From: an uncultured bacterium
GTDB lineage: Bacteria > Fidelibacterota > UBA2242
Direction of reading: 5' to 3'
Length of the DNA: 64,000 bases
Assembly: GCA_964441235.1 (NCBI GenBank)
Contig: CAYTUQ010000010.1
Span: 11,549 to 75,548, forward strand
Part shown: positions 11,458 through 33,576 of the stretch, one piece after another
How the letters are laid out: every line of letters begins with the position of its first letter
Numbering within the stretch: position 1 is the stretch's first letter
Program-made: the position numbers and the translations under genes
Notes under the pieces: model-generated
Database searches by the model: none
Told to the model about the DNA's origin: nothing
The model's input: the letters and a program-made list of their open reading frames with translations, nothing else

Positions 11458-11856
11458 TTACTTTGAGATGCAATCACCAATTATTTCCCACATTTTTAAT
11501 GCATCTTTTGACGAATTATGTGTCCGAATGATCGGTTTTCTTAATATTTTATGAGCAAGAAGGTACATTACGCTTCCGATATACTGTCTTATAAAGTCAT
11601 CTTCAACTTTGACATTATCTGGTGTCCAATAATTTAATTCTTCTTCAAAATGAAAATCAGAATGTGCGATACAGTTTTCATTGTCATAAACAACTATTGC
11701 TAATCTTGAATCCGGAAATCTTGACAATGGATATTTATCAACACGGAAATAGAAACTATATGGTTGTTGCTTCAATTTATTCAGTTTTCCATTATCCAAC
11801 GAGGAATATTCAATATCTTTAATGCTCATTCTTGTAAACCCGCGCAAATCTATCAT
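11458..11856 (-). CDS. Hypothetical 132-aa protein immediately downstream of the retron-type RT (candidate effector)
   Basis: Co-oriented about 100 nt after the RT stop. I recognise no family for it. Confidence 0.5.
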   Translation of the reverse strand: MIDLRGFTRMSIKDIEYSSLDNGKLNKLKQQPYSFYFRVDKYPLSRFPDSRLAIVVYDNENCIAHSDFHFEEELNYWTPDNVKVEDDFIRQYIGSVMYLLAHKILRKPIIRTHNSSKDALKMWEIIGDCISK

Positions 11857-14025: not shown

Positions 14026-14340
14026 TAAAAAGGCTGGTCTCTTTTTATATTTTCGATTTTACCTTGTTAAAAAAACCGGTCAGGATTTTGTCCATTTATA
14101 CTCGACACTTTTTAATAAAAATCATTTTTGTCGACTATACAAGGACAATAATTGTATTTCCGCTCACCAAATATAGTACACACAAACAAAAAATTTGAAA
14201 TCAACACTCCATTACTCCATTACTCCAACAATCCAATTCTCCATTACCCTACCACTCCATTTTCTTTTTCTTGTCTTTCCCCAAAATCCGTATTATATTA
14301 CCGACCGACCAGTCAGTCACAATTGAAAAGGGAAATAAAA

Positions 14341-14976
14341 TTGACGCCACTACCCAAAGATAAAGAAAAACGCAAGCGCATTATTGCTGCCGCTATAAAA
14401 GTCTTTGCACTCGACGGGTTAAGCAATGGTAAAATAGCCACTATTGCCCAAAAGGCAGGCATCGGCAAGGGTACAGTCTATGAATATTTCAGCAGTAAGG
14501 AAGATATATTTGAAGCAGTGTTCAAGGATTTTTTCGATCAAATGATAATAGACTATTCTCAACTGCTTGAAGTGCCTATGGATCCAGTCCAGAAAATGGA
14601 AGCTATGTTCGATTACACTTACGATTACCTTGATCAACTTATGGAAGAGAAGCACGGCGAGGAATTGCTGATTTTCCTGGAAATATTCCTGCAGGGCTTC
14701 CGGGATGAATTCAGAGGCGCCGGCAAATTATCTTTCAGCACCGTATTACGTGAAGTATATGATATCTTCAAACCCTTTGTAGATGAAGGCATTAATGCCG
14801 GTGTCTTTAAGCCCCTCGATTCGGAACATGTGACATTTATCCTTTTCGCTGCCCTAGACGGAATCGGTTTGCACTATTTCATTAATCGCAATCATTATAA
14901 TAAAGAAAAATTTAAAACGATCACCAAAGATATTTTTCTGAACGGTTTACTCAAATCCCAAACCGAAGGAGCATAA
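14341..14976 (+). CDS. TetR/AcrR family transcriptional regulator
   Basis: RIIAAAIKVFALDGLSNGKIATIAQKAGIGKGTVYEYF is a TetR HTH. A TTG start at 14341 is likely. The listed 14152 start adds a low-complexity N-terminus that runs through repeat DNA. Confidence 0.7.
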   Translation: MTPLPKDKEKRKRIIAAAIKVFALDGLSNGKIATIAQKAGIGKGTVYEYFSSKEDIFEAVFKDFFDQMIIDYSQLLEVPMDPVQKMEAMFDYTYDYLDQLMEEKHGEELLIFLEIFLQGFRDEFRGAGKLSFSTVLREVYDIFKPFVDEGINAGVFKPLDSEHVTFILFAALDGIGLHYFINRNHYNKEKFKTITKDIFLNGLLKSQTEGA

Positions 14977-14977
14977 C

Positions 14978-15727
14978 ATGAAACGCCTGTTACTATTCTG
15001 CCTGATTATCATCACATCCCTGACCGCCGGCGATCCCGACGTGTCGGGACCGGAGATTCTAAATAAAATCATCAATCTTATGAATCCCGAAAACGCCCGG
15101 GGAGTCATGGAACAGACTATTGTAACCACTTCCGGCGATAAGAGGACTTTCAAATACGAAACTTACATGGGCAATCGCGGTGAGTCGTCACTCATGCGCT
15201 ATCTGGAACCTTCCCGGGTCAAGGGCAATGCGCTGCTCATGATCGATTTTTCCGACAATATCTGGATGTATAACCGCCGCACCGGTCGTGTGCGTAAACT
15301 GGCGTCACATGCCAAAAAGCAGAAGTTCGAGGGTTCCGATTTCACTTATGAAGACATGGGTTCCGGGGACAGCTGGAAAACGGATTTTAAACCCATATTA
15401 AAAGGCACTCAAAAGATAAACAAAGTACGTTGCTTTAAGCTGGAACTTCAGACGAAATCCGAGGATGTTTCTTATAGTAAAATGATCTGTTGGGTACGTG
15501 TCGGCGATTTTTTCCCGATTCAGATCGATTACTACGATGAGAAAAATGTGTTCACAAAAACCCTGTTTCTTCAAGATATTCGTACAATTGAAGGTATATT
15601 AACTCCCATGAAAATGGTTATGAGAAATAATCTCGACCGCACTGAAACCGTCATGAAATACGTCAATATCACTTATGATGTTGAGTTTGATAAAGGCTTC
15701 TTCAGCGAACGAAATTTAAAAAAATAG
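14978..15727 (+). CDS. LolA-like outer-membrane lipoprotein-sorting family protein
   Basis: Signal peptide, and the typical position between TetR and the MMPL transporter. Confidence 0.5.
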   Translation: MKRLLLFCLIIITSLTAGDPDVSGPEILNKIINLMNPENARGVMEQTIVTTSGDKRTFKYETYMGNRGESSLMRYLEPSRVKGNALLMIDFSDNIWMYNRRTGRVRKLASHAKKQKFEGSDFTYEDMGSGDSWKTDFKPILKGTQKINKVRCFKLELQTKSEDVSYSKMICWVRVGDFFPIQIDYYDEKNVFTKTLFLQDIRTIEGILTPMKMVMRNNLDRTETVMKYVNITYDVEFDKGFFSERNLKK

Positions 15728-15744
15728 ACCGAAATGAGATTCTT

Positions 15745-16908
15745 ATGAAACGACTACTTTTTTTGCTAATCATCAGCGCTTCACTTCTTGCCGGACCGGA
15801 CTGGTTTGGGTATTACGAGGGTGAATATGATTTCGGAAAATTACAGGACAAATCAATGTATTTCGGGTATAACAAGTTGCGCCTTGACATGGATACCAGC
15901 CCATCTGAAAATATCAGGATCAGCGCGGACCTGATTTACAAGGAGTATAACGGCCAGACAAATCTGAATTTTCTGGATTTTCTCGACCCCGGTTTTCGAC
16001 CGGTTGTTCCAAATTCTGATATGTCTGGTTGGGACACATTATCCTATATTCCTTACGCCCTCTCGGATTCCCTGTTTATCGACAACATGTTCCTGGAATT
16101 CCATCACAAACTTTTCGATCTGACACTCGGTAAACAGCAGATTTCCCCCGGCGTGGGTTACGCCTGGAATCCGACTGACATTTTCAATATCAAGGATATC
16201 ATGGACCCCACCTATGAAAATACCGGGATTTCTGCTATTAAACTCGGCATACCGCTGGCTGAACGCATTATTTTAACCGGAATTTTACAACCCAAACAAT
16301 CGTGGGATGAGACGGTACAGTATTACCAGATAAAAACCGGGTTTGGGCGCTACGATCTATCGGTCTTATATAGTCGCAGTCAGTATCGTCAGAGCGGTCT
16401 GTTTACAACAACAATCCAGTCACACAATCTATATGGGTTCAACCTTGAAGGTGAATTGTTCGGACTTGGCATTCGCAGCGAAGTAGCCGCTCACCGGTTG
16501 GATTATAACAGCGATAATTTACAATACGAATACATTATCGGCGGTGATTATACGTTTGCCAATTCCCTGTTCCTCCTGACTGAATTCTACCACAGTGACC
16601 TGGGAGCAAAAACCGATCAGACCGTCTTCGATGATTATATGGTCTATTTTGCCGGCGAGCGCAAAAGCCTGAATCAAAATTATCTCTTTGCACTGGCAAT
16701 GTATCCGCTGGGCGACTTGCTGGATATCAGCGCCTTCGGAATTATCAACCTGAATGATAAAAGCGCCGTCATCGCGCCGCAACTGATGTACAGGATTTTC
16801 CAAGATGTGGAATTAGCTTTTATGGGTAGTCTGTTCATCGGTGAAGATCCAGACGAGTTCGGCTTTCAGGAATATGGCGCACGTGTGCGCTTAAGAGCCT
16901 ATTTTTAA
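15745..16908 (+). CDS. Predicted outer-membrane beta-barrel (DUF1302-like)
   Basis: Signal peptide, alternating beta-strand pattern, C-terminal aromatic (AYF) OMP signature. Confidence 0.5.
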   Translation: MKRLLFLLIISASLLAGPDWFGYYEGEYDFGKLQDKSMYFGYNKLRLDMDTSPSENIRISADLIYKEYNGQTNLNFLDFLDPGFRPVVPNSDMSGWDTLSYIPYALSDSLFIDNMFLEFHHKLFDLTLGKQQISPGVGYAWNPTDIFNIKDIMDPTYENTGISAIKLGIPLAERIILTGILQPKQSWDETVQYYQIKTGFGRYDLSVLYSRSQYRQSGLFTTTIQSHNLYGFNLEGELFGLGIRSEVAAHRLDYNSDNLQYEYIIGGDYTFANSLFLLTEFYHSDLGAKTDQTVFDDYMVYFAGERKSLNQNYLFALAMYPLGDLLDISAFGIINLNDKSAVIAPQLMYRIFQDVELAFMGSLFIGEDPDEFGFQEYGARVRLRAYF

Positions 16909-16974
16909 TAATCCGATCTTATTTTAATCTGCTGTAATGGATGAAAGCTGTTAATATTAAAAAGAGGTAAGATA

Positions 16975-19900
16975 ATGAGAGAAAAATTTTTAGATACAAT
17001 TGCTCGCTGGGCAGGTGAAAAAACCTGGTGGATGTTTTTGGGGATAATAATAATTACTATAATTATGGGCGCTTTGGCAGGACAATTAGAAGTGAATATG
17101 AATCTCACTATGCTACTTCCTGAAAACGACCCAATGGTAAATGAATTCAATAAAATCTTTAAAGAATTTAATGGCGCCAATACAGTTTTTGTTGTTGTCG
17201 AAGGAGAACAACAGAATATGAAAAAATTCGCCGAGTATATTACTCCCAAAATATTAAACCTTGAAAATTGGATAGAACAAAATGCTTCTTCCAAAGTAAA
17301 GAAACAACACAACATACTTATTACAAAAGCTGATGAGGGAAAAACCGAATATGCCGGGAATTATTTTGATAGAGTGGATTATAAAATGCCAACTGAATTC
17401 ATGAGAGATCATGGCCTTATGCTGGTAAAAAGTTCTGATCTAAAAAATACCAGTGAAGTATTTACAAATCCCAATATTGTAAAATTATTACAAAATATAA
17501 ATAACAGTCTGGAAAAGGAATATATCCAATCAGAAGAGAAAATCTCCACTACACAGAAAGAACGTTCCGCAGTACAATTTCTTGATGGAATTGAGAGCTG
17601 GTTGGATAATACTGCAAAAGGACTCTATGATTCAGAATATAAAAAACAATCTGCTACTAAAGCAGCAAATGCAATAGGCGTAGGAAATCCCTATTTTATA
17701 TCACCCGATCGCTCAATGCTGCTTATAATGGCTGAACCTACCTTTTCTATCATGGATATGAATTGTGTAATGCCAGGCATCAATGGATTGGAAGAAATGG
17801 TGAAAACTGAATCTACACAATTTAATGTAAAAGCCGGTTTAGCCGGAGGGGTAGTACTTGGCAGAGATGAAATGGTAGCCGGCACAGAGGATTCTTATCT
17901 TTTAACTATATTGGCTTTAATCGCAATATTTATCCTTTTCATATTCACTTTCAGGATGTTCAGCGCCCCTTTGCTTGCGATGTTTAATTTATTAATCGGA
18001 ATAGTGTGGGTTATGGGTGTGGCTTATCTATTAGTACAGAGATTAAATTTATTTACGTTAATGGTTTCTGTGATTCTTGTTGGTCTCGGAATAGATTTTT
18101 CCATTCATATCATTTCACTTTTTTCAGAATACGTAAACAAAGGTGTAGAACCTAAAAAGGCTATCCGCATTACTTTACAAAAAGCGGGAACTGGTATTAT
18201 TACCGGTGGAATAACTACTTCTGCCGCTTTCTTAACACTTTGCATTGGACGTAGTGAAGGTATTAGTGAATTTGGGCTTGTAAATGGAGTCGGCTTATTA
18301 TGTATTATGATTGCTACGATAATCACTCTGCCGACTTTTTTAATGTTACGTGAAAAATACAGAAACTGGCGGGGGAAAAGTATTAAAAAATACCATGATG
18401 TAACCTATGCAGCAATTGGTAATATTGGGCAGAAACAATATAATAAGTGGAAAGTTTCTTTGGTTTCTCTGATCCTTGTCACTCTCATATTGGGTTATTT
18501 TATCACAAAAGTCACTTTTGACTATAATTATCTAAATATGGAGCCGGCTGGATTAGAATCTATTAAACTTAATGATAAAATTATCGACAAATACAACATG
18601 TCTTCGGATGCAACCTGCATTACAGCTAATTCCCTGCAGGAAAACTATAAATTTGCAGAGGAAGCCAAAGAAAAATCCAGTATCAGTTATATTGAATCCA
18701 TTACTGACTATTTACCACCGCAGGACAAGCAAAAATCACGTAAGCAAAAGATAGCAAATATTCACAAGCAGATGGAAAATCAAACAATTGCACAGAAAAT
18801 TACAGAGGTGGATTGGCAAAAATTCATTGATGAAATGATTCGCCTGGAAGATAATGTCATTGAAATGCAGGATATGGCTTTCATAGGCGGGCAGGATATG
18901 GTGGATACAAAAGCAGCCCGCTTAGTCGGGAATGCTAATATTTCTAGAGCAGTAGTTGATCTGGAAGACCTTTTATTTAATCCGGCGGATTTAGAAATTA
19001 ACAATAAAATCAAAAATATTTGCAAGATGCTGAACTTCGTCAAATCCAAAAAGGAAAATCCAAGAATAAAGAATGAACTTTCTGAACTTATAAATAAACT
19101 ATCCGCTTTTTCTAAAAATTCAGTTTCATTATCTAAGGATGAAAAAATAGAAAAACTTAACAAATATTATGGTAAATTAACGCAAATTACTGAATATCCG
19201 GAATTTAAGGGCAGGATATCAGAATTTATAACCCAATTGACTAATAACTCCGATAAATTGGAGCGGCTATCAAAATTTAATCATGATTTTGCTCTAGAAT
19301 ATAAAAATTTAATCCTGAATATGGCTGATACATCGAACATAACTTTATCAATGCTGCCGGATCTCATCAGAGATAAATACATTAGTAAAAGCGGGGAAGT
19401 TTTTCTTTTATCAGTTTATCCCAAAGGGAATATATGGAATCTGAAGTACCTGGATCTTTTTTCCAATGAAATGTTCGAAATCTCCCATAGAATTATCGGA
19501 ACTGCCCCTATGTTTTATTATCTGATAAAAATTATTGGCAGAGATGGGAGAAATGCTGCCTTTTTGACTCTATTTGTGGTCTTCATTTTCTTGTTAATTG
19601 ATTTTAAATCTTTTAAAAGTGCTTTTCTTGCTATGATTCCCCTATTAACCGGAATGATCTGGATGTTGGGATTAATGGGAATATTTCATGTACAACTCAC
19701 TCTTGTAAATATTATGGCTTTACCATTAATTCTGGGAATTGGGGTTGATGATGGAGTACATATCCTGCATCGTTACAGGATTGAAGGAACAGGTGCAATT
19801 AAAACTGTTTTCGCTTCAACGGGAAAAGCAATTATCATAACATCTCTGACAACAATGTTATCTTTCGGCTCTTTAGTTTTTGCCACTTACAGAGGTTACG

Positions 19901-20007
19901 GTAGTTTGGGAATTGCTCTATTTATCGGAGTTGGCGCTTGTCTGTTGACATCTCTTCTGATATTACCGACAATTCTTGGTATGGTTGATAGGAAAAAGAA
20001 GAAATAA
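16975..20007 (+). CDS. MMPL/RND-superfamily transporter (HpnN-like, two SSD-type TM bundles)
   Basis: Two repeats of 6 TM helices after large periplasmic domains. GLGIDFSIHI and GIGVDDGVHILHRY motifs. Confidence 0.85.
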   Translation: MREKFLDTIARWAGEKTWWMFLGIIIITIIMGALAGQLEVNMNLTMLLPENDPMVNEFNKIFKEFNGANTVFVVVEGEQQNMKKFAEYITPKILNLENWIEQNASSKVKKQHNILITKADEGKTEYAGNYFDRVDYKMPTEFMRDHGLMLVKSSDLKNTSEVFTNPNIVKLLQNINNSLEKEYIQSEEKISTTQKERSAVQFLDGIESWLDNTAKGLYDSEYKKQSATKAANAIGVGNPYFISPDRSMLLIMAEPTFSIMDMNCVMPGINGLEEMVKTESTQFNVKAGLAGGVVLGRDEMVAGTEDSYLLTILALIAIFILFIFTFRMFSAPLLAMFNLLIGIVWVMGVAYLLVQRLNLFTLMVSVILVGLGIDFSIHIISLFSEYVNKGVEPKKAIRITLQKAGTGIITGGITTSAAFLTLCIGRSEGISEFGLVNGVGLLCIMIATIITLPTFLMLREKYRNWRGKSIKKYHDVTYAAIGNIGQKQYNKWKVSLVSLILVTLILGYFITKVTFDYNYLNMEPAGLESIKLNDKIIDKYNMSSDATCITANSLQENYKFAEEAKEKSSISYIESITDYLPPQDKQKSRKQKIANIHKQMENQTIAQKITEVDWQKFIDEMIRLEDNVIEMQDMAFIGGQDMVDTKAARLVGNANISRAVVDLEDLLFNPADLEINNKIKNICKMLNFVKSKKENPRIKNELSELINKLSAFSKNSVSLSKDEKIEKLNKYYGKLTQITEYPEFKGRISEFITQLTNNSDKLERLSKFNHDFALEYKNLILNMADTSNITLSMLPDLIRDKYISKSGEVFLLSVYPKGNIWNLKYLDLFSNEMFEISHRIIGTAPMFYYLIKIIGRDGRNAAFLTLFVVFIFLLIDFKSFKSAFLAMIPLLTGMIWMLGLMGIFHVQLTLVNIMALPLILGIGVDDGVHILHRYRIEGTGAIKTVFASTGKAIIITSLTTMLSFGSLVFATYRGYGSLGIALFIGVGACLLTSLLILPTILGMVDRKKKK

Positions 20008-20016
20008 TTACCAGAG

Positions 20017-20343
20017 GTGAATATCATTGGCAAACAGCAGGATGTTGTTAATGTAATGGCTTTACCATTAATTCAAAGGATTGGTATTGATGACGGTGTC
20101 CATATCATCCATCGCTGGCGCAGAGAGGGACGCGGCTCCGTAAAGACTGTCTTTGCAAGCACCGGAAAAGCTATCCTTCTTACTTCTCTAACAACAATGC
20201 TGGCGTTTTGATCGCTTTTATTTTCTTTATGGAGAGGATATGGAAGCCTGGGAACTGCACTCTTAATCGGTGTTGGCGCCTGCTTCATCACCACCGTATT
20301 TATTCTTCCCGGGATTATCGGGTGGATTGAGAGAAATTTCTAA
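20017..20343 (+). pseudogene. Decayed, GC-richer duplicate of the MMPL transporter 3' end
   Basis: VNVMALPLIQRIGIDDGVHIIHRWR...KTVFASTGKAILLTSLTTMLAF then, after a frameshift, ...GYGSLGTALLIGVGAC...ILPGIIGWIERNF. It parallels the last ~110 aa of the intact gene ending at 20007. Confidence 0.7.
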
Positions 20344-20649
20344 TTTCTAATTTCAAATATCAGATTTCAAATTGAAAAATGCTTGACATGCTCGAATGTA
20401 TTTAATAAAATTAGTCGTAAATACAGAGTGATTTTAATGTGATTTTTCTTAGGATGCTATATGGAATTTATCCACTCAGTAAAGAACTCGCGTCTAAAGA
20501 AGATGATAAAACAAGATTTGTGATAATAGAAATATAATTCGTTGATTGATCAGGAAAAAGAAAATAGACTTACCATTATCGTAGAGAATCGAAAAGGTAA
20601 ACATTTGTTAAAAGGGTTGAATCAGATTTCTTATATATTGATACTATAA

Positions 20650-20949
20650 ATGGATATAAGAAATATTCAAGATAGAATAAAAAAAGGCGCCTATCGATTT
20701 TCGGATCATGCTATTAAACGTATGATAGAACGATCACTTGACCGCAAAGATGTTGAAGAAGCAATTTCGAACGGAAAAATTATTGAAGAATATCCAGATG
20801 ATAAATATTCACCAAGTTGTTTAATTTATGGACAAACAGACACAGAACGAGATCTTCATGTTCAGATTTCTCTACCGCCAAAAGTCGTAATCGTTACAAC
20901 ATATGAACCTGATCCTCAAGAATGGATCAATTGTCAAATCAGGAGGTAA
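20650..20949 (+). CDS. DUF4258-family type II toxin
   Basis: YRFSDHAIKRMIERSL and the size are typical of DUF4258. It is paired with a zinc-finger antitoxin downstream. Confidence 0.65.
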   Translation: MDIRNIQDRIKKGAYRFSDHAIKRMIERSLDRKDVEEAISNGKIIEEYPDDKYSPSCLIYGQTDTERDLHVQISLPPKVVIVTTYEPDPQEWINCQIRR

Positions 20950-20954
20950 TTAAG

Positions 20955-21200
20955 ATGAATTGTGTATTTTGTGGAGGCAAAGTTGAGTCTAAAGAAGTAA
21001 CATTTACTTATGAAAGTGAAGATCAGGTTATTTTAGTTAGAAAAGTACCTGCTGAAGTTTGTACTCATTGTGGTGAAAAAACTTACTCTCCCAAGATTAC
21101 AGATGAACTTTTAAAATTTGCTAAATGTCGTTTTAAGCCTGTGAAAACAATCGAAACTCCGGTGTTTGATTATACGAGAAAAGTGGCTGTAAAAGTTTAG
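20955..21200 (+). CDS. YgiT/MqsA-type zinc-finger antitoxin
   Basis: CVFCGG...CTHCGE double CxxC motif. The aggagg RBS favours the ATG at 20955 over 20922. Confidence 0.6.
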   Translation: MNCVFCGGKVESKEVTFTYESEDQVILVRKVPAEVCTHCGEKTYSPKITDELLKFAKCRFKPVKTIETPVFDYTRKVAVKV

Positions 21201-21378
21201 TTTATTTTTCATTTTATAGTACTGTCACGTCACACTTGTGTCGATCGAAGATTCCTTTGGAAAGACATCTCTTCGAGATAATGACGTATAGAATATAGTA
21301 ATTTTATAACCAAAGTTTGATGGTTCTGTCAATTAAAATTGCTAAAAATATTGGCATAAAAACAATTGAGGTAGAAAA

Positions 21379-21597
21379 ATGATTACCTATACATTTTCCA
21401 AAGCAAGACAAAATTTTGCCACGGTACTTAATAAAGCAAAAGAAGATAGTGAAGTATTAATCAAACGTAAAGATGGAACTTTATTCAAAATCCAATCAGT
21501 CAAGAAAAATATGTCCCCATTTGATGTAAAAGGTATAAATCTATCAATTACGTCTGAAGAAATAGTTGATATCGTACGTGAAATAAGAGAAAGATAA
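21379..21597 (+). CDS. Phd/YefM-like antitoxin (orphan)
   Basis: MITYTFSKARQNFATVLNKA has an antitoxin-like N-terminus. No cognate toxin lies downstream; repeat DNA follows. Confidence 0.5.
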   Translation: MITYTFSKARQNFATVLNKAKEDSEVLIKRKDGTLFKIQSVKKNMSPFDVKGINLSITSEEIVDIVREIRER

Positions 21598-21829
21598 ATC
21601 GTAACCGTTCACCCCGTTAGATACTTACTATTTTAAACAACGAATATCTATTAGGGGTTGTTATCTCACGGGGTTCACGGCTTTTCCAAAGGAACTCCCT
21701 TGGAGGAAACTTGAAATTGGAAAGTAGAAATTGGGAATAAGGGAGACCTGTCTGCGTGCCTGCCTGAGAGAGTACGCTCGCAGACAGGCGGGCACGCACA
21801 GGCAGGGATGAAACGAGTTTACGAGTTGG

Positions 21830-22325
21830 ATGTCTATGCCGATCGAAGATTCTCCGAAGGAGTCCTATGTGACCTTTGTAAAGGCATGCCTTTGGCACAA
21901 ACTGGCAGAAGCGTTATCAGATATGGTTTGGCACGACTTTGATAAATGGAACAAAAAGGTTCAGAACACAGTGGGCTATCAGATAATACAATCATCTGAC
22001 AGCATAGCTGTAAATATAGCGGAAGGGTATGGTCGACACACCCCCGCTGACAGGAAAAAGTTCTATATTTACCCCGTTAAATTCTGATCCATCAGAATAT
22101 TTAACTGGGGTATATTCAAGAAGTTCATTTGAAGAAACCAAATCATGGTTGCGAAAACTTATCAGAAGAAAAGTTTTAACTGAGTCAAGCGCAACAGAAT
22201 ACAAAGCAATAGTTGCTCCGCAGGTCACAACGGTCAGACGACTCGTAGAGACTCCTTTGGAGAGCCCCCTCGGGAAAAAACTCGGCCCAAAATTGAATGC
22301 GTTCATCAACAGTACAAAAGCATGA
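21830..22325 (+). pseudogene. Four-helix-bundle (23S rRNA intervening-sequence family) protein, frameshifted
   Basis: IAEGYGRHTPADRKKFYIY in one frame continues as ...GVYSRSSFEETKSWL in the next (ORFs 21830..22087 and 22029..22325). Confidence 0.55.
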
Positions 22326-22448
22326 AGACCAAATTTCTAATTTCAACGTTCGTTGAACAGTTACTAATAAGGAAACATTCGTTATTCACACTGCAGCTAA
22401 CTTTTGACCGTTATATAATCCGTCTAATTTCTATTTAAAGCAAGAAAT

Positions 22449-24461
22449 ATGAACCGATCTCAGGCAGAACAAAAACTACAACAAATATTTAACATTGATC
22501 ATTTTTATGACGACCAATGGGATACGATCAAGAGAATTCTAAATGGTGAAAGAATCCTGTTAGTCGAAAAAACCGGCTTCGGTAAATCTCTCTGTTATCA
22601 GTTCCCGGCAACTCAATTTTCCGGTTTGACAATAATCTTTTCACCCTTGATTGCATTGATGCGCGACCAGGTTAAATACTTAAAATCAATCGGTATTCCA
22701 ACTGAATGCGTGAATAGCGGGCAAGAGTCCGAAGAAAATACTGAAATAATGGAAAAGGCAAAAAACGGACAAATCAAAATTCTTTATATTGCCCCCGAAC
22801 GACAGGAGAACCGGGAATGGTTGGAAGCCGTTCGCAATATGCAAATCTCGATGGTGGTCATTGATGAAGCCCATTGTATCTCTGTATGGGGGCACGATTT
22901 CAGACCAGCCTTTCGTCGCATCGTCAGTTTGGTAAAATTGCTCCCGCAAAATTTTCCGGTATTAGCAACAACAGCAACTGCCACTAAAAGAGTAGCAGAA
23001 GACGTACGAACACAAATTGGAAATAATGCTACTCTTATTCGCGGAAATCTACTACGGGAAAATTTCCATTTAAGTGTAGTTAAAGTATCTAATGAAGAAT
23101 CCAAAATGGCATGGCTGGCAGGATTTCTTCAAAAGCAGGAAGGAAATGGTCTGGTTTATACCGGAACAAGAGTCAACACGGATCTTTTTTCTTCCTGGTT
23201 GCAATTTGCCGGTATAAGCGCGGCAAACTATAATGCCGGTTTGGATTCAGAATCCAGAAAAGACATTGAGAACGGATTAATTGAGAACAGGTGGAAATGT
23301 ATTGTTTCAACCAATGCACTTGGAATGGGGATTGACAAACCGGATATTCGATTTATTATTCACACGCAAATACCTCAATCTCCCATCCATTACTACCAGG
23401 AAATCGGAAGAGCGGGACGAGATGGATTACCGACGAGAATTGTTCTATTATATAACCCGGATGATAAGGAATTGCCGGAACATTTCATCAAAAATAGTCG
23501 CCCCTCGATAAAAAAATATGAAAGAGTTATTGATGCCCTCAAAACCGAACCGATGAGCGAATGGAATTTGATGCGTGCAACAAATCTTACACAGACACAA
23601 GTACGAGTTATTAGAGCAGATTTGATTGATCAAGGCATCATTAAAGAAGTGATGTATGGCAGAAGTAAAAAATACGAATACCAGTATGGCGCATCTCAAC
23701 TTGATACGAGACCTTTTGAAGAACTTCGGAATTTCAAGATGGCTGAACTGGAACAGATGATATCCTATTCCGAGTCCTCAACCTGTAGAATGGATTTTCT
23801 TTGTCGCTATCTTGGCGACGATACTGTCAATCATTGTGGAAAATGTGATAATGATTTACAAAAAAACCTTCATTACGGTCTCTCTGAATACTGGCAAAAA
23901 AAGATTAATGAATTCAGGGATTCTTATTTCCCCGAGTTGGAAATTGAATTAAAAAATTCCAATATCGTCAACGGCGTCGCATGTTCATATTATGGCATAT
24001 CCAATGTTGGCGCGGCAATACACCGTTGTAAATATGAAAACGGCGGCGATTTCCCCAACCATTTATTGAGACAAACTTTAAGGGCATTCAGACACAAATT
24101 TGGAAATGAGGAATTTGACCTTGTCGTATATGTTCCACCAACAGAATCAGGTGATCTTGTGAAGAATTTTGCAGAAAAAGTGGCGCGGACATTAAAATTC
24201 CCATTATCACACAAACTTGTGAAAATAACTAACACGAAACCACAAAAAGTATTTCAAAACTCTGTCTTGAAACACGATAATGTAAAAGATGTATTTTCAT
24301 ACCAGGATGAATCCAGGATTATTGGTAAGAAGATTTTATTAATTGACGATATTTATGATAGTGGCGCAACTATTAAGGAAATTGGACGATTATTTACTAA
24401 ATTAGGGGCAGAGAAAATTGCGCCATTAGTAATAGCAAAGACAGTGGGGGGCGATATTTAA
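22449..24461 (+). CDS. RecQ-family helicase fused to a C-terminal ComF-type phosphoribosyltransferase domain (PsyrT-like)
   Basis: RecQ motifs: [23 protein letters not shown], and the Zn module CRMDFLCRY...CGKCDN. The C-terminal ~190 aa carry the PRTase signature NVKDVF...[16 protein letters not shown]. Confidence 0.85.
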
Positions 24462-25579
24462 TGAGTGATATTCAACAATATGCCTATTGGATGGCTTTAG
24501 CCCATTTACCAAAATGGCGAACGGAAAAAATAAATCGTTTAATTGTGGAAATTCTACACGAACGAAATATGTCCTTTTCTGAATTTTTTGAGATGGATCA
24601 AAAAAGTTGGTCAGAAGAATTTCAGTTCAATTCAAAAGAATTAAATGATCTGGATACAGCAAAATCCGAACTTCCCAATTATTCTTTTCTCGTTGAAGAT
24701 TTACTAAATCAGGGCTTTGAATTAATTCCAATAGATGCCGATGATTACTCACCCACCCTAAAAAATAATTTAAAACTGAAATATGCCCCGCCTTTACTTT
24801 ACACTAAAGGAAACAAAAGTTTACTGAAAGAATCATCCATTGCTATCGTTGGTTCACGAAACGCTTCTGATATTTCTTTGGAATTCACAAAGAATATTGC
24901 TAAAAATACTGTTAAGAACTTTCAGGTTGTCGTCAGCGGTTTTGCGAAAGGCGTTGATCGAACAGCATTAGAAGAAACTTTAGCCGCATACGGTAGAAGC
25001 ATCATTGTTCTGCCGCAGGGGATTATGACTTTTGCCAGTGGTTTTAAGAAATATTATTCCCGGATAATTGAAGGTGATATCCTGATTTTAAGCGCTTATC
25101 ACCCCAAAGCGCCCTGGTCCGTCGGACTTGCAATGGGACGAAATGCTTACATTTACGGTTTAGCGGATAAAATCTATGTAGCCGAATCTGATGTAAAAGG
25201 CGGAACCTGGTCAGGTGTGGTTGACGGCTTGAGAAAAAACAGGGAAATCTATGTTCGCAAACCAAACCCTGGTGAAAATAACGCTAATGATTTATTGATT
25301 TTAAAAGGCGCGACGCCGGTAAGTATTAATGGCGATATCGTACAAAAAGAAGAATTAGAGAATTTTGAAGAACGGGTGAAAAACGTTCTTTCATCCAAAC
25401 CGTTAACCGCAAGTGAAATAAAAGATAAAATTCATATTGATATTGATACGCGAAAACTATCGTCTATGCTTTCTGAATTGGCATTTGTTGTTAAGGAAAA
25501 GGGAAATAGTAAAAACCGTTTCAGGCTTAAGAATTCAGAGGTTGTTCAAACAAATTTATTTGATTCACGTGATATCTAA
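24461..25579 (+). CDS. DprA/Smf-like Rossmann protein (PsyrA-like partner)
   Basis: PPLLYTKGN...IAIVGSRNAS...GFAKGVD...IVLPQGI...ILILSAYHP...WSVGLAMGRNAYIYGLADKIYVAESDVKGGTWSGV is the DprA core. Its start overlaps the upstream stop (TAATG). Confidence 0.8.
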   Translation: MSDIQQYAYWMALAHLPKWRTEKINRLIVEILHERNMSFSEFFEMDQKSWSEEFQFNSKELNDLDTAKSELPNYSFLVEDLLNQGFELIPIDADDYSPTLKNNLKLKYAPPLLYTKGNKSLLKESSIAIVGSRNASDISLEFTKNIAKNTVKNFQVVVSGFAKGVDRTALEETLAAYGRSIIVLPQGIMTFASGFKKYYSRIIEGDILILSAYHPKAPWSVGLAMGRNAYIYGLADKIYVAESDVKGGTWSGVVDGLRKNREIYVRKPNPGENNANDLLILKGATPVSINGDIVQKEELENFEERVKNVLSSKPLTASEIKDKIHIDIDTRKLSSMLSELAFVVKEKGNSKNRFRLKNSEVVQTNLFDSRDI

Positions 25580-25590
25580 TCCCCACTATA

Positions 25591-25622
25591 CCCCACGGCA
25601 AACCGCCGTCGGTGAGTTTTTT
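25591..25622 (+). terminator. Rho-independent terminator after the DprA-like gene
   Basis: GC hairpin cggcaaaccgccg..ggtgag followed by a TTTTTT run. Confidence 0.4.
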
Positions 25623-25823
25623 CAATAAAAGAATAAAACCGGGAATGTTGGTTCTTTCTGTAAACCTATTTTTATATATTTTTTAATAAAACAATTGCGT
25701 ACTTCAAGTTAGACCGCCAAAATGGTGAAATACTAATAAATGGTATCATTATAGATAAAAATAACTTGATAATTCTTTTGGTAAATAGTACATTTGGAAT
25801 GTACAGTAGGAAAGGTAATACAT

Positions 25824-26054
25824 ATGCAAACAATTGCAGTAAATGAATTAAGAGCGAATTTAATGAAGGTCTTAAAAAAAATTGAATATGGAGAAAGTCT
25901 TGATATTACCTCTCAAGGTAAAGTCGTTGCTAAACTAGTACCTCCTGAATATAGTAGAGAAAAAGCAAGAAATAAACTAAAGGAAATTAGAAAGAGAGCT
26001 GTAATACATGATGTAATTTCTTCCATCGATGTTGAATGGGAGACAATGCAATAA
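25824..26054 (+). CDS. Phd/YefM-family antitoxin
   Basis: MQTIAVNELRANLMKVLKKIEYGESL. RBS aggaaagg. Overlaps the PIN gene start. Confidence 0.75.
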   Translation: MQTIAVNELRANLMKVLKKIEYGESLDITSQGKVVAKLVPPEYSREKARNKLKEIRKRAVIHDVISSIDVEWETMQ

Positions 26055-26554
26055 TGATAACTGTAGACACCCATATCATTATTTGGGATGCTTTGAAACC
26101 GGAATTGCTAAGTGAAAAAGCAAAAAGTGAATTGGAACGAGCAAACCAAACAGATGGGATTATTTTCTGCGATATTTCTCTTTGGGAAATTGCAATGCTG
26201 ATTAAGAAGAAAAGAATAGAAATTGATGTCCCATATCTTGAATTCATAGATTTAGTTAAAGCTTCAAATAATTACATTTTTCAAGAAATAACTCCAGAGA
26301 TTGCTGAATTATCTGCCAATTTAACATTAGATATTAATTCAGACCCAGCTGATAGATTAACCCTACTACGTCATTTAGTACTTTTGTATACAATATGTTG
26401 TTTGTATATGTTAATGTTAACCAAACATATAGTGCTATATCTTATAAGTTACGTTGTAGGGTTAATTAGCGACACTTCTCTTATTTCCAATACTACACTA
26501 ATCACAGCTGATAAAAACCTAAGAAAATCGAAAGAATTAAGAACAATATGGTAA
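26054..26554 (+). CDS. VapC PIN-domain toxin carrying an ~40-aa in-frame insertion
   Basis: MITVDTHII...DISLWEI...DPADRL then an atypical hydrophobic stretch before the terminal ...TTLITADKNL PIN block. Confidence 0.65.
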   Translation: MITVDTHIIIWDALKPELLSEKAKSELERANQTDGIIFCDISLWEIAMLIKKKRIEIDVPYLEFIDLVKASNNYIFQEITPEIAELSANLTLDINSDPADRLTLLRHLVLLYTICCLYMLMLTKHIVLYLISYVVGLISDTSLISNTTLITADKNLRKSKELRTIW

Positions 26555-31262: not shown

Positions 31263-31490
31263 ATGATACAAGTAAATATACACCATGCAAAGACTCACCT
31301 TTCAAGATTAATTCAAAAAGCAATTGAAGGTGAAGAAGTGGTTATAGCAAAAGGAAATAAACCGATAGTTAAATTAACGCAAATTCTAAATGTACCACAG
31401 ATTAGGAAACTGGGATCTGCTCAGGGGAAAATACATATATCTGATGATTTTAATGAGCCATTGGATGATTTTGCGGAGTATATGAATTGA
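31263..31490 (+). CDS. Phd/YefM-type antitoxin (VapB-like)
   Basis: MIQVNIHHAKTHLSRLIQKAIEGEEVVIAKGNKP. Overlaps the PIN gene start. Confidence 0.7.
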   Translation: MIQVNIHHAKTHLSRLIQKAIEGEEVVIAKGNKPIVKLTQILNVPQIRKLGSAQGKIHISDDFNEPLDDFAEYMN

Positions 31491-31873
31491 AGTATATAAT
31501 TGATACTCTTACACTACTTTGGATAGTTGATAATAATTCGCAATTGACTCGTACTGCTAAGGAAATATATCTCGATGAAAATAATGAAATATTATTAAGT
31601 ATCGCTAGTATATGGGAAATAGCAATAAAAATAAGTTTAAAGAAATTGATAATTCCATGTCGTTTATCGGATTTTGTAAAAGAACATATCATTGGAAATA
31701 ACATTCGGATTTTAAATATAGCATTGTCACATATATACCGACTGGAAACCTTAAAATATTACCATAGAGACCCTTTTGATCGTTTAATAATATCCCAATC
31801 TATTGAAGAAAATATCCCGATTATTAGTTCAGATAGTGAACTTGATAAATACGAAATAGATCGAGTTTGGTAA
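31487..31873 (+). CDS. VapC PIN-domain toxin
   Basis: IIDTLTLLW...SIASIWEIAIK...DPFDRLIISQSIEENIPIISSDSELDKY PIN motifs. Confidence 0.75.
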   Translation: MKYIIDTLTLLWIVDNNSQLTRTAKEIYLDENNEILLSIASIWEIAIKISLKKLIIPCRLSDFVKEHIIGNNIRILNIALSHIYRLETLKYYHRDPFDRLIISQSIEENIPIISSDSELDKYEIDRVW

Positions 31874-32021: not shown

Positions 32022-32282
32022 GCCTGCCCGACGCAGGCGGGAACAAAGCCATCTATCTGGAATTTGCACGGCTTTGAGTTATGCTGATAATCAGTGGTGA
32101 ACAGGTAAAATATTCAGTTTATTGCAGCAATGTTAATCATAAACGTTGTTTTTTATCGGATATCTTGATGAAAACCGGTCCGATACCCAAGGAATACCGA
32201 ATTCTGCAAAAACTATTCTCATGCCGCAATTTGCGGCTTATAGCGACATATAGCGCTAATTTTTGTGAGTTACTTTGTAGGC

Positions 32283-32912
32283 TTAATCACCAAAAAGACC
32301 CAATTGATCCTTATTATTCTCTTTTTTCTTTTCGGCAATCTTCCTGTTAATTTCAGCTCTTCTTTTTTTTCTCTTTTTTATTTTTTCCTCCTCGATTCTT
32401 CTATTTTCATCAACGAATTCCTGTAATTCTCTGGCTTCTTCATCATCGGCAAATTCAATAATATATTTTTGATTGTCCACCATACTTTTGGGGATAATAA
32501 AACCTTCCGGCGTTTGATAAAAAGTAAAAGAATCAGATATTTCTTTACTACAATATCCTTCTTCGCCGATGCTCAGGTTACAGGCTTTTTCGATTTGAGT
32601 TGCTTTAGTGCCAATAGTTGACTTCTTTGTTCCAAAATATTTACAAAGCGAGTCAACAGTAATATAATTTTCATTTTGCTTATCAAATAAAAAATTCAGG
32701 CGAGCTATAACATAAATAATAGATGCGGCCCAAATTTCCTTTTTCCCTCGAATAATATTTATTATCCTTTTTCTACCGAGTTTCCCACATAACTTGATAG
32801 CATACCCTTCCAATTCAGGCGTCAAATACTCCTCACAAAAAGAATGTATCATTTCTTTAATTTTATCTACTCTTTCTGCTTTGTCATTTTTATCTTTTGA
32901 AAATTTATTCAT
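32283..32912 (-). CDS. Hypothetical protein with a K/R/E-rich C-terminal tail
   Basis: 209-aa ORF. No family recognised. Confidence 0.45.
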   Translation of the reverse strand: MNKFSKDKNDKAERVDKIKEMIHSFCEEYLTPELEGYAIKLCGKLGRKRIINIIRGKKEIWAASIIYVIARLNFLFDKQNENYITVDSLCKYFGTKKSTIGTKATQIEKACNLSIGEEGYCSKEISDSFTFYQTPEGFIIPKSMVDNQKYIIEFADDEEARELQEFVDENRRIEEEKIKKRKKRRAEINRKIAEKKKENNKDQLGLFGD

Positions 32913-32933
32913 ACTGATTTTATCACCTTTTAT

Positions 32934-33527
32934 CTAATCAGAAATATATTTATCAATTTCTTTCATAAATATCTCCTCTGTCCTTGCGCCGACCCATTTT
33001 TGACGTATAATACCTTTTTTATCAATAAGGAAAGTTGTAGGAATACCTCGAATGCCCCCATACTTAACTGTTAGATCTTTGAGATATTTTTCATCGCCTG
33101 TCAGGATTGTATAGTTTATAGAATTATTATTTACAAAGGATTGGATTTTTGCTGCATTACCTGAAGATAATGTAATACCGACAATTTCCAGTCCGTCTTT
33201 TTTGTGTTTATCATACATTTTAATAAAGTCCGGAATCTCGTAAAGACATGGACCGCACCATGATGCCCAAAAATTCAGAATTACGACTTTGTCTTTGAAT
33301 TGCTTAAGTGTTACTTCTTTGCCATCAAGAGTAATTAATGAAAAATCGGGTGCTATACTTCCGATAGAACCGGGAATTCGCATAATTTGTGATTGTTTGA
33401 CTTCGCCTGTATTTTTTCCACTGGTAGTGTTAGGTTTTTGCTCTTTTTGGGCACAGCCTACTCCAAAACTGATAAGCATAAAAGTTGAAAATAATATTAC
33501 CATTGTTACCGCACTTTTCAATTTCAT
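32934..33527 (-). CDS. TlpA/ResA-like thioredoxin-fold lipoprotein (thiol-disulfide oxidoreductase)
   Basis: Lipobox FGVGC. WCGPC active site in NFWASWCGPC. Confidence 0.8.
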   Translation of the reverse strand: MKLKSAVTMVILFSTFMLISFGVGCAQKEQKPNTTSGKNTGEVKQSQIMRIPGSIGSIAPDFSLITLDGKEVTLKQFKDKVVILNFWASWCGPCLYEIPDFIKMYDKHKKDGLEIVGITLSSGNAAKIQSFVNNNSINYTILTGDEKYLKDLTVKYGGIRGIPTTFLIDKKGIIRQKWVGARTEEIFMKEIDKYISD

Positions 33528-33576
33528 TGTGTTATCTCCTCTTTATTAATAATTCAAGATACTGCATTTCTGAGCA

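What the first reader, a model, noticed from the sequence alone, without database searches (positions are those of the whole stretch)
22449..25622. RecQ-helicase::ComF-type PRTase fusion with an overlapping DprA-like gene (PsyrTA/ShosTA-like toxin–antitoxin defence pair)
The 670-aa protein is a complete RecQ core including the Zn module. It is fused to a ComF/GntX-type phosphoribosyltransferase domain (NVKDVF...[13 protein letters not shown]). The next gene overlaps it by 1 nt (TAATG) and encodes a DprA/Smf Rossmann protein. This domain pairing matches the published PsyrTA family (RecQ+PRTase toxin, DprA-like antitoxin) and its relative ShosTA. It also parallels the competence trio ComFA/ComFC/DprA in a single module. 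A hairpin-plus-TTTTTT terminator closes the unit.
Basis: partly seen in the sequence, partly recalled or inferred. Interest (0 to 1): 0.7.

Follow-up and report, generated by a model that had tools for sequence, protein, structure and literature searches.

The report
PsyrTA (RqlHI) toxin–antitoxin defence pair

Summary
A 670-aa ORF (22449-24461) and a 372-aa ORF (24461-25579) overlap by one base (TAATG). A hairpin plus U-run (25585-25622) closes the unit.

PADLOC matches both proteins to PsyrT (E 1e-280, end to end) and PsyrA (E 2e-79). The first protein has all the defining features of RqlH/PsyrT:
- intact RecQ-type ATPase motifs
- a ~85-aa family-specific spacer, modelled here as winged-helix-like
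- a four-cysteine zinc module
- no RQC or HRDC domain
- a C-terminal ComF/ShosT-like PRTase with an invariant DD PRPP loop

The second protein is a three-domain DprA/ShosA-like protein.

The pair is syntenic in nearly all related loci found and is under purifying selection (dN/dS about 0.1). It sits in a variable, toxin-antitoxin-rich slot between conserved core genes. Its synonymous divergence is 2-8 times lower than that of its flanks, which indicates recent lateral exchange.

Toxicity, neutralisation and anti-phage activity are inferred from published E. coli and Bacillus work and were not tested here. This is a new member of a known kind, of low interest.

The parts
22410..22448 (+). Short conserved 5' leader of the cassette. 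About 40 nt are shared with related loci L002 and L004. L001 and L003 carry a different leader, and homology with them starts only ~15 nt before the ATG.
   Evidence: blastn boundaries and upstream sequences. No sigma-70 promoter above chance and no inverted-repeat operator. The promoter is not identified.
22449..24461 (+). psyrT / rqlH: 670-aa RecQ-like helicase fused to a PRTase (the toxin/effector).
   Evidence: ORF. PADLOC PsyrT 1e-280, full length. recQ_fam subfamily 343.8 bits, above the 219.8 cutoff. dN/dS 0.09-0.12.
22449..23468 (+). RecQ-type SF2 ATPase/helicase lobes (residues 1-340): Walker A GFGKS 43-47 (K46), DEAH 139-142, motif [10 protein letters not shown] 317-324.
   Evidence: Pfam DEAD and Helicase_C. 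1.4e-80 to the E. coli RecQ core 1oyw over residues 4-340. Motifs 100% conserved in 97 family members.
23508..23681 (+). Family-specific spacer (residues ~354-411), modelled as a helix-helix-helix-strand-strand unit with a winged-helix shape.
   Evidence: No Pfam hit. AlphaFold2 pLDDT 90-97 with HHH-EE topology. It corresponds to the '90-aa RqlH-specific linker' of M. smegmatis RqlH. The winged-helix label is my reading of the topology and was not confirmed by a separate fold search.
23709..23858 (+). Four-cysteine RecQ zinc-binding module (residues ~421-470; C446, C452, C463, C466).
   Evidence: Pfam RecQ_Zn_bind 426-469, 3e-9. The cysteines are 92-100% conserved.
23886..24434 (+). C-terminal ComF/ShosT-like type-I PRTase domain (residues ~480-662) with PRPP loop [13 protein letters not shown] 629-641.
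   Evidence: Pfam Pribosyltran. comF and GntX hits below cutoff. Foldseek: ShosT 8zvd 3.5e-6, PurF 5.6e-6, PurR 1.4e-4, H. pylori ComF 7p0h 1.9e-4. D633 and D634 100% conserved, D637 98%.
24461..25579 (+). psyrA / rqlI: 372-aa DprA-like antitoxin with an N-terminal helical domain (1-83), a DprA Rossmann domain (87-290, GSR 131-133, GFAKGVD 160-166) and a C-terminal winged-HTH-like unit (302-356).
   Evidence: PADLOC PsyrA 1.9e-79, ShosA 2e-33. Pfam DNA_processg_A 3e-39. AlphaFold2 pLDDT 89. Foldseek: DprA 3maj 3e-16, 3uqz 9e-15, ShosA 8zva 1e-14. dN/dS 0.11-0.14.
25585..25622 (+). Probable intrinsic terminator: a bulged GC-rich hairpin running into UUUUUU.
   Evidence: Fold -12.5 kcal/mol, z -2.4. 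Conserved in L002 and L004 but absent from L001. Not called by the consensus scan.

Best explanation
The locus is a two-gene, translationally coupled psyrT-psyrA (= rqlH-rqlI) operon. It is a toxin-antitoxin-type module of the PsyrTA anti-phage defence family, carried as a laterally exchanged cassette in a variable chromosomal slot of a probable Marinimicrobia genome. PsyrT is a 3'-5' RecQ-like DNA helicase whose C-terminal ComF/ShosT-like PRTase domain binds PRPP and is the genotoxic effector. PsyrA is a DprA-like ssDNA-binding protein made from the same transcript that binds PsyrT and holds it in check. When that restraint is lost, the PRTase activity acts together with the helicase body and causes DNA damage or disturbs purine-nucleotide metabolism. 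The SOS response, filamentation and growth arrest follow, and phage replication aborts. Two triggers are plausible by analogy with ShosTA: phage shut-off of host synthesis depleting a labile antitoxin, or phage ssDNA titrating the DprA-like protein and RecA. Shown here: the gene pair, its domain architecture, intact catalytic motifs, conserved synteny, purifying selection and cassette-like mobility. Shown elsewhere for homologs: helicase polarity (M. smegmatis RqlH); PRTase-dependent toxicity, rescue and physical interaction (E. coli RqlHI); anti-phage activity (Millman et al. 2022). Inferred: that this copy does the same, the trigger, and the chemical reaction of the PRTase.
For: Full-length PsyrT (1e-280) and PsyrA (2e-79) profile matches. 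Domain set: ATPase, spacer, four-cysteine zinc module and ComF-like PRTase, with no HRDC or RQC. This is identical to the published RqlH architecture. K46, DEAH, motif VI, the four cysteines and the DD-x-x-D PRPP loop are intact and 92-100% conserved. The PRPP-loop aspartates are the residue class whose mutation (D663A) abolishes E. coli RqlH toxicity. PsyrA has the DprA/ShosA fold. A psyrA homolog lies immediately downstream in about 29 of 31 informative loci across many phyla, and the TAATG overlap is conserved in the close relatives L001, L002 and L004. dN/dS is 0.09-0.14. The cassette lies between conserved core genes in a slot whose other contents vary and are rich in toxin-antitoxin genes. 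Its dS of 0.25-0.35 compares with 0.66-2.6 for the flanking core genes. A type VI retron reverse transcriptase lies ~10 kb upstream. Literature: PsyrTA = RqlHI is defensive and the psyrA deletion could not be transformed; RqlH is toxic through its PRTase, RqlI neutralises and binds it, and the two form one operon; ShosT binds PRPP and perturbs purine metabolism, and ShosA binds ssDNA and RecA.
Against: No experiment exists for this copy. In one native-host study the E. coli NILS69 PsyrTA gave no detectable protection against the phages tested. More than half of the RqlH-encoding strains surveyed lack RqlI, so toxicity is not universal. The cassette keeps the same chromosomal slot in several related MAGs and has the same G+C content as its surroundings, which also fits a stable resident gene. 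No promoter or operator was identified. The PRTase substrate is unknown even for ShosT.
Confidence: 0.85

Rival explanations
1. A resident DNA-maintenance complex rather than a defence system. RqlH and RqlI would act together on the host chromosome, for example by modifying and then resolving a nucleotide lesion as in the Russell and Mulvey model. Toxicity would be only a side effect of unbalancing the pair.
For: The model was proposed by the authors who characterised RqlHI. The cassette occupies the same chromosomal slot in four related MAGs. Purifying selection is strong. No composition anomaly is seen. Native E. coli PsyrTA showed no anti-phage effect. Many genomes carry RqlH without RqlI.
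Against: The rqlHI deletion had no fitness phenotype. PsyrTA protected against phage in a heterologous screen. Here the cassette is 2-8 times less diverged at synonymous sites than its flanks, which implies lateral exchange. It sits among variable toxin-antitoxin genes. Homologs at 55-78% identity are scattered across unrelated phyla and occur on an ICE and inside a plasmid type I R-M operon in E. coli.
Confidence: 0.1
2. A competence or DNA-uptake module: a fused ComFA/ComFC-like protein plus a genuine DprA that processes incoming ssDNA for transformation.
For: The PRTase resembles ComF. The partner has the full three-domain DprA fold. The parallel is discussed in the literature.
Against: Scores fall well below the curated cutoffs for DprA (108.9 against 191.15) and ComF (41 against 233.55), while the PsyrT and PsyrA profiles fit far better. 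The helicase is RecQ-type, not ComFA-type. No competence genes were found among the neighbours scanned. No transformation role was found for rqlHI.
Confidence: 0.03
3. An addiction-only or decaying selfish toxin-antitoxin cassette with no benefit to the host.
For: It has toxin-antitoxin-like genetics, neighbours that include degraded genes (a truncated 23S-IVP ORF and a PIN gene interrupted by a small inverted-repeat element), and lateral exchange.
Against: Both genes are full length with every catalytic motif intact, and dN/dS is about 0.1, so they are not decaying. A large two-enzyme toxin is costly for mere addiction.
Confidence: 0.02

Closest known systems
PsyrTA / RqlHI (Pseudomonas syringae psyrTA, Sberro 2013; E. 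coli F11 RqlH-RqlI, Russell and Mulvey 2015; M. smegmatis RqlH, Ordonez 2012; defence role, Millman 2022)
   Same: The architecture is the same domain for domain: RecQ-like ATPase, ~85-90-aa spacer, four-cysteine zinc module and ComF-like PRTase, with no HRDC. The DprA-like partner has a C-terminal HTH and lies immediately downstream with an overlapping start. Profile matches are full length.
   Different: The host is a probable Marinimicrobia MAG lineage. PsyrA is 372 aa against 400 aa for RqlI, and its last ~70 residues are not covered by the PADLOC profile. Two E. coli relatives inspected here are only about 32% identical; the chromosomal one, which was aligned in full, lacks the four cysteines and has DDIVNS in place of DDIYDSGAT. 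No direct alignment to F11 RqlH was possible with these tools.
ShosTA (E. coli; Pu 2025, Yang 2026)
   Same: It has a PRPP-binding PRTase toxin and a DprA-like antitoxin. ShosT is the best structural match to the PRTase half and ShosA is among the best matches to PsyrA. It is a defence system with a filamentation and DNA-damage phenotype.
   Different: ShosT has no helicase. ShosA neutralises without binding ShosT (a type IV toxin-antitoxin), whereas RqlI binds RqlH. Profile scores are much lower: ShosT 23 bits and ShosA 114 bits, against PsyrT 931 and PsyrA 266.
Competence proteins ComFA / ComFC / DprA
   Same: A helicase, a ComF-type PRTase and a DprA-type ssDNA-binding protein occur together.
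   Different: The helicase is RecQ-type and is fused to the PRTase. Scores are below the family cutoffs for comF and dprA. The neighbouring genes are toxin-antitoxin genes, not competence genes.
Canonical RecQ (E. coli RecQ, PDB 1oyw)
   Same: The ATPase lobes (1.4e-80 over residues 4-340) and the zinc-binding motif are shared.
   Different: It falls below the recQ equivalog cutoff (398.8 against 640.2). It has no RQC winged helix or HRDC domain, has an extra spacer, and has an added PRTase.
DpdF helicase of the Dpd 7-deazaguanine DNA-modification system
   Same: The RecQ-like helicase domain gives strong PADLOC DpdF hits (3.5e-117) over residues 3-369.
   Different: Only the helicase part matches. 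NCBIfam DpdF scores 176.9 against a cutoff of 550. None of the neighbouring ORFs scanned with Pfam gave a Dpd-related hit.

Membership tests
PsyrTA / RqlHI | Toxin matches the PsyrT profile over its full length | tested here: met
   PADLOC PDLC03928: 1e-280, 930.9 bits, residues 1-669 against profile positions 1-688 of 689.
PsyrTA / RqlHI | RecQ-like SF2 ATPase with intact motifs I, II and VI (K49 and D148 equivalents) | tested here: met
   GFGKS 43-47, DEAH 139-142 and QEIGRAGR 317-324 are all 100% conserved in 97 homologs. 1.4e-80 to the E. coli RecQ core.
PsyrTA / RqlHI | ~90-aa RqlH-specific spacer between the ATPase and the zinc module | tested here: met
   The ATPase ends at ~340 and RecQ_Zn_bind starts at 426. 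The spacer models as a confident HHH-EE unit. The feature is defined.
PsyrTA / RqlHI | Four-cysteine zinc-binding module | tested here: met
   PF16124 at 3e-9. C446, C452, C463 and C466 are 92-100% conserved.
PsyrTA / RqlHI | No HRDC domain; the C-terminus is instead a ComF-like PRTase with an acidic PRPP loop | tested here: met
   No PF00570 or PF09382 hit. Pribosyltran 574-659. comF and GntX similarity. ShosT, PurF and ComF folds. DDIYDSGAT 633-641 conserved.
PsyrTA / RqlHI | DprA-like partner (PsyrA/RqlI) immediately downstream on the same strand, close or overlapping | tested here: met
   1-nt overlap TAATG. PsyrA profile 1.9e-79. The same arrangement is found in about 29 of 31 informative related loci.
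PsyrTA / RqlHI | Partner has an N-terminal region, a DprA/MoCo-carrier-like Rossmann domain and a C-terminal HTH | tested here: met
   AlphaFold2 model: helical 1-83, Rossmann 87-290, HHH-EE 302-356. Foldseek finds DprA, ShosA, then MoCo-carrier and LOG proteins. RqlI domains are given. The PADLOC profile itself covers only residues 5-301.
PsyrTA / RqlHI | Toxin alone is toxic through its PRTase; the partner neutralises and binds it | not testable with these tools
   Shown for E. coli RqlHI. It needs expression experiments for this copy.
PsyrTA / RqlHI | Protects against phage | not testable with these tools
   Reported by Millman 2022. Not seen for E. coli NILS69 PsyrTA with the phages tested.
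ShosTA | Toxin is a stand-alone PRTase protein without a helicase | tested here: not met
   The PRTase is fused to a 470-aa RecQ-like body. The ShosT profile scores only 23.3 bits on residues 540-666.
ShosTA | DprA-like antitoxin best described by the ShosA profile | tested here: not met
   ShosA scores 113.8 bits against 265.6 bits for PsyrA. The fold is nevertheless shared.
Canonical RecQ | Reaches the recQ equivalog score and carries RQC and HRDC domains | tested here: not met
   TIGR01389 scores 398.8, below the 640.2 cutoff. No RQC or HRDC hit.
Canonical DprA (transformation) | Reaches the dprA equivalog score | tested here: not met
   TIGR00732 scores 108.9 against 191.15, and NF008007 scores 76 against 495.
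ComFC / GntX | Reaches the ComF family score as a stand-alone ~200-250-aa protein | tested here: not met
   TIGR00201 scores 41 against 233.55, and NF008616 scores 31.4 against 304.
DpdF (Dpd system) | Reaches the DpdF equivalog score and lies in a dpd gene cluster | tested here: not met
   NF041063 scores 176.9 against 550. The neighbours scanned are toxin-antitoxin genes and a transporter.

The most novel reading that the evidence does not exclude
The helicase body, including its winged-helix-like spacer and zinc module, may be the sensor that loads PsyrT onto phage or replication-derived ssDNA. The PRTase may then use PRPP to phosphoribosylate DNA bases or DNA-proximal nucleobases directly, as Russell and Mulvey speculated, rather than simply draining a metabolite pool. 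PsyrA together with RecA would reverse or repair this on host DNA. In that case the cassette, which is laterally exchanged among Marinimicrobia at a fixed hotspot, would encode a DNA-directed phosphoribosylation immunity mechanism that has not yet been demonstrated.
Probability: 0.12. Interest if true: 0.6.

Novelty: new member of a known kind. Interest (0 to 1): 0.15.

Why it matters
It matters little on its own. The family is catalogued in PADLOC, and standard defence-system annotation would flag this copy.

Its modest value has three parts:
- It extends PsyrTA to uncultured marine Marinimicrobia.
- It gives a clean natural example of the cassette being exchanged at a fixed hotspot between conserved core genes, with synonymous divergence far below that of the flanks.
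- It gives a confident model suggesting that the previously unassigned 'RqlH-specific linker' is winged-helix-like.

The chemistry of the PsyrT PRTase and the trigger of the system remain open questions for the whole family. This locus does not make them more tractable than the E. coli or Bacillus homologs do.

Tried and rejected
- **Direct comparison with E. coli F11/CFT073 RqlH-RqlI.** A blastn 'distant' search of E. coli genomes found only a 59-nt match in six genomes. The gene pair inspected in one of them (H16) is a different, ~32%-identical RecQ+DprA pair on an ICE. tblastn against plasmids gave only relatives at 28-36% identity among those listed (all under 60%). Membership therefore rests on the PADLOC profile and the published architecture.
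- **Promoter.** The sigma-70 scan gave 15 sites against 13.6 expected, with none placed sensibly upstream. No inverted-repeat operator was found upstream. Only ~15-40 nt upstream of the ATG are shared with related loci. The promoter remains unidentified.
- **Foreign-island signals.** There is no G+C or skew anomaly, no tRNA and no Rfam family in the window.
- **PRTase domain by sequence against the PDB.** Only the PRPP loop matched (E about 3e-3), so structure prediction was needed.
- **C-terminus and N-terminus of PsyrA by Pfam.** Nothing significant was found.
- **dN/dS for the flanking TetR gene.** The values were nonsensical (dN 1.4) because the alignment was poor, and they were discarded.
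- **Rejected assignments.** DpdF, canonical RecQ, canonical DprA and ComFC were considered and rejected on curated cutoffs.
Full report
**Observation.** The two ORFs are at the stated coordinates: 22449..24461 (+, 670 aa) and 24461..25579 (+, 372 aa). The junction reads TAATG, so the stop codon of the first gene and the start codon of the second share base 24461. No antisense ORF in the interval has any supporting evidence; the longest is 106 aa. Downstream, 25585-25617 folds into a bulged GC-rich hairpin (-12.5 kcal/mol, z = -2.4 against dinucleotide shuffles). It runs directly into UUUUUU at 25617-25622. The consensus terminator scan missed it because of the bulges. The hairpin and T-run are conserved in two related loci, L002 and L004.

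**Identity of the first protein.** Pfam finds DEAD (21-184), Helicase_C (219-326), RecQ_Zn_bind (426-469) and Pribosyltran (574-659).
- PADLOC matches the PsyrT profile end to end (E 1e-280, 931 bits, residues 1-669 on profile positions 1-688 of 689). Its DpdF hits cover only the helicase part, and ShosT scores only 23 bits on the PRTase part.
- NCBIfam places it in the RecQ subfamily (343.8 bits, above the 219.8 cutoff). It falls below the recQ equivalog cutoff (398.8 against 640.2), the DpdF cutoff (176.9 against 550) and the comF cutoff (41 against 233.55).
- Residues 4-340 align to the E. coli RecQ catalytic core at 1.4e-80.

Between the ATPase (ending at ~340) and the zinc motif (starting at 426) lies a ~85-aa segment with no Pfam match. 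An AlphaFold2 model of residues 340-670 (mean pLDDT 82.6) shows this segment as a confident helix-helix-helix-strand-strand unit at ~354-411 (pLDDT 90-97). I read that topology as winged-helix-like. The zinc-module helices follow, and then an alpha/beta domain at ~480-662.

A Foldseek search of that model against the PDB is headed by ShosT (8zvd, 3.5e-6). The PurF PRTase domain (5.6e-6), PurR (1.4e-4), H. pylori ComF (7p0h, 1.9e-4) and purine PRTases follow. By sequence alone only the PRPP loop matches solved PRTases.

This architecture is the one published for M. smegmatis RqlH. That protein has an ATPase at 1-346, a 90-aa RqlH-specific spacer, a four-cysteine zinc domain, no HRDC domain, and a ComF-like C-terminus with amidophosphoribosyltransferase motifs.

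**Identity of the second protein.** Pfam DNA_processg_A covers residues 83-287 (3e-39). PADLOC gives PsyrA 1.9e-79 (residues 5-301) and ShosA 2e-33. NCBIfam dprA scores 108.9, below the 191.15 cutoff. PDB sequence hits are to DprA and ShosA.

The AlphaFold2 model (pLDDT 89.3) has an N-terminal helical domain (1-83), a Rossmann domain (87-290) and a C-terminal HHH-EE unit (302-356). Its best structural matches are full-length DprA (3maj 3e-16; 3uqz 9e-15) and ShosA (8zva 1e-14). MoCo-carrier and LOG proteins follow at 1e-5 to 1e-3. This mirrors the published RqlI description of a DprA homology region, a 'MoCo-binding' region and a dispensable C-terminal HTH.

**Integrity and selection.** I aligned 97 family members. 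Walker A K46, DEAH 139-142 and D633/D634 of the PRPP loop ([13 protein letters not shown] 629-641) are 100% conserved. D637 is 98% conserved, and the four zinc cysteines (446, 452, 463, 466) are 92-100% conserved. By motif position, D637 probably corresponds to the E. coli RqlH D663 whose mutation abolishes toxicity; this mapping is an inference. dN/dS against three close relatives is 0.09-0.12 for psyrT and 0.11-0.14 for psyrA. Both genes are therefore functional.

**Synteny and distribution.** A scan of one genome per species found 35 loci. The closest (91-94% identity) are in Candidatus Neomarinimicrobiota MAGs or unclassified marine 'bacterium' MAGs, which suggests the source of the window. 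Other loci at 55-78% identity are spread over Cloacimonadota, Calditrichota, Bacteroidota, Ignavibacteria/Melioribacteraceae, Omnitrophota, Thermodesulfobacteriota, Fibrobacter and others. A psyrA homolog lies immediately downstream in about 29 of 31 loci with enough sequence; L019 is a solo psyrT. This agrees with the published rule that rqlH is always upstream of rqlI and is often overlapping or close, and that solo RqlH genomes exist. The protein database holds thousands of homologs of each protein.

**Context and mobility.** In the Marinimicrobia relatives the cassette occupies the same slot. It lies downstream of a TetR / LolA-like / MMPL-transporter operon (window 14086-20478). In L001 it lies upstream of the DUF6398 / AhpC / DsbD genes (window 32277-35280).

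The window carries about 2 kb and 6.7 kb of extra material on the two sides, compared with about 0.2 kb and 1.2 kb in L001. That material includes:
- DUF4258 plus an MqsA-like zinc-finger protein
- an orphan Phd
- a truncated 23S-IVP ORF
- Phd plus PIN
- a DUF2971 protein
- a second PIN protein

The shared cassette runs from ~22410/22434 to ~25588/25631 at 91-93% nucleotide identity. The core flanks are only 65-84% identical. Synonymous divergence is 0.25-0.35 for psyrT and psyrA, against 0.66-1.66 (LolA-like gene) and 1.1-2.6 (the 387-aa ORF) in the same genome pairs. So the cassette has been exchanged laterally more recently than the flanks diverged. G+C content, skew, tRNAs and Rfam give no further signal.

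**Mechanism.** The evidence falls into three classes.

*Shown for homologs:*
- M. smegmatis RqlH is a ssDNA-dependent ATPase with 3'-5' helicase activity, and this activity is independent of the ComF-like domain.
- E. coli RqlH expressed alone induces the SOS response, filamentation and loss of viability.
- That toxicity needs the PRTase domain and its PRPP-loop aspartates, although the PRTase alone is not sufficient.
- RqlI neutralises RqlH, co-immunoprecipitates with it and is co-transcribed with it.
- PsyrTA protects against phage, and the psyrA deletion could not be transformed.

*Shown for the sister system ShosTA:*
- The toxin binds PRPP, couples PRTase and pyrophosphatase activities, and disturbs purine metabolism.
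- The DprA-like antitoxin binds ssDNA and RecA and is intrinsically unstable.
- T7 Gp0.7 triggers the system by shutting off host protein synthesis.

*Inferred for this locus:* translational coupling (TAATG) keeps the two proteins co-produced. Loss or titration of PsyrA during infection frees the PRTase-helicase to damage DNA or disturb nucleotide pools, and this arrests the cell. The trigger and the PRTase substrate are unknown for the whole family.

**Caveats and rivals.** One native-host study saw no protection from E. coli NILS69 PsyrTA. The original authors favoured a cooperative DNA-maintenance role. I give that rival about 0.1. Lateral exchange, the toxin-antitoxin-rich variable slot, the scattered distribution across phyla, and the ICE and R-M-embedded copies in E. 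coli all point to a mobile defence or toxin-antitoxin cassette. The competence, DpdF, canonical RecQ and canonical DprA readings fail the curated cutoffs.

**Verdict.** The system belongs to a known, catalogued family. The ComFA/ComFC/DprA parallel was already discussed in 2015. Novelty: new member of a known kind. Interest: low (0.15).

Noticed in passing
window 11958-12779 (-), with 11458-11856 (-) downstream: A 273-aa reverse transcriptase matches the PADLOC retron type VI RT profile (1.2e-72, 243 bits). The adjacent 132-aa ORF has no Pfam or PADLOC hit and could be its effector. The low-GC stretch upstream (12-14 kb, GC 0.305) could hold the msr/msd RNA.
   Followed up: partly
window 20650-22325 and 25794-26554, 31487-31873: PsyrTA is flanked by a run of small toxin-antitoxin genes: DUF4258 plus an MqsA-like zinc-finger protein, an orphan Phd/YefM, Phd plus PIN, and a second PIN. 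A truncated 23S-rRNA-IVP four-helix-bundle ORF (21830-22087, matching only profile positions 7-62 of 106) is probably a remnant. These genes are absent or rearranged in related genomes.
   Followed up: partly
window 26356-26466 (inside the PIN gene 26036-26554): A ~111-bp insert bounded by 22-nt inverted repeats (ATTAACCCTACTACGTCATTTA / TAAGTTACGTTGTAGGGTTAAT, 86% complementary) sits in frame in the VapC-like PIN gene. It adds a hydrophobic stretch just before the conserved C-terminal 'LITADKNL'. It looks like a miniature inverted-repeat element. There is no other copy in the window.
   Followed up: partly
window 20017-20211 (+): A 64-aa ORF repeats the C-terminal transmembrane segment of the adjacent MMPL/RND transporter (16975-20007). 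It appears to be a duplicated gene fragment at the edge of the variable slot, and it is also present in L002 and L003.
   Followed up: no
window 22410-25630 compared with flanks 14978-16908; loci L001-L004: Synonymous divergence of the PsyrTA cassette (dS 0.25-0.35) is 2-8 times lower than that of the neighbouring core genes in the same genome pairs (dS 0.66-2.6). The DUF4258/MqsA-like pair is even closer to L002 (dS 0.02-0.18). This indicates recent lateral exchange of the islet's contents among Marinimicrobia.
   Followed up: yes
L002 12089-12305: A second copy of the last ~217 nt of psyrA (residues 305-372 plus the terminator region, 90% nucleotide identity to the window) lies ~1 kb downstream of the intact psyrA in this related MAG. 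An insertion that duplicated the gene's 3' end would explain it.
   Followed up: no
L036 (E. coli IncF plasmid NZ_OX030731.1, 37352-40869) and L037 (E. coli chromosome NZ_AP021946.1): A distant RecQ+DprA pair (~32% identity) is embedded between hsdS and hsdR of a type I restriction-modification operon on a conjugative plasmid. Another sits on an ICE next to HigA and an ABC-three-component system. The ICE copy lacks the four zinc cysteines and has DDIVNS in the PRPP loop.
   Followed up: partly
homologs P0096, P0031, P0037: Some close PsyrT homologs (65-79% identity) are ~200 aa longer. P0096 carries RQC plus HRDC and P0031 carries HEAT-like repeats plus HRDC; in both, the extra domains lie N-terminal to the helicase, a permuted position relative to canonical RecQ. 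P0037 carries C-terminal leucine-rich repeats. Gene-calling fusions were not excluded.
   Followed up: partly
L008 (JAFCDU010000037.1): A 64%-identical PsyrTA pair lies on a 5-kb contig binned as a Candidatus Pacearchaeota archaeon. It is nearly the same as the Calditrichota and Polaribacter copies, so either the cassette was transferred into a DPANN archaeon or the contig was mis-binned.
   Followed up: no
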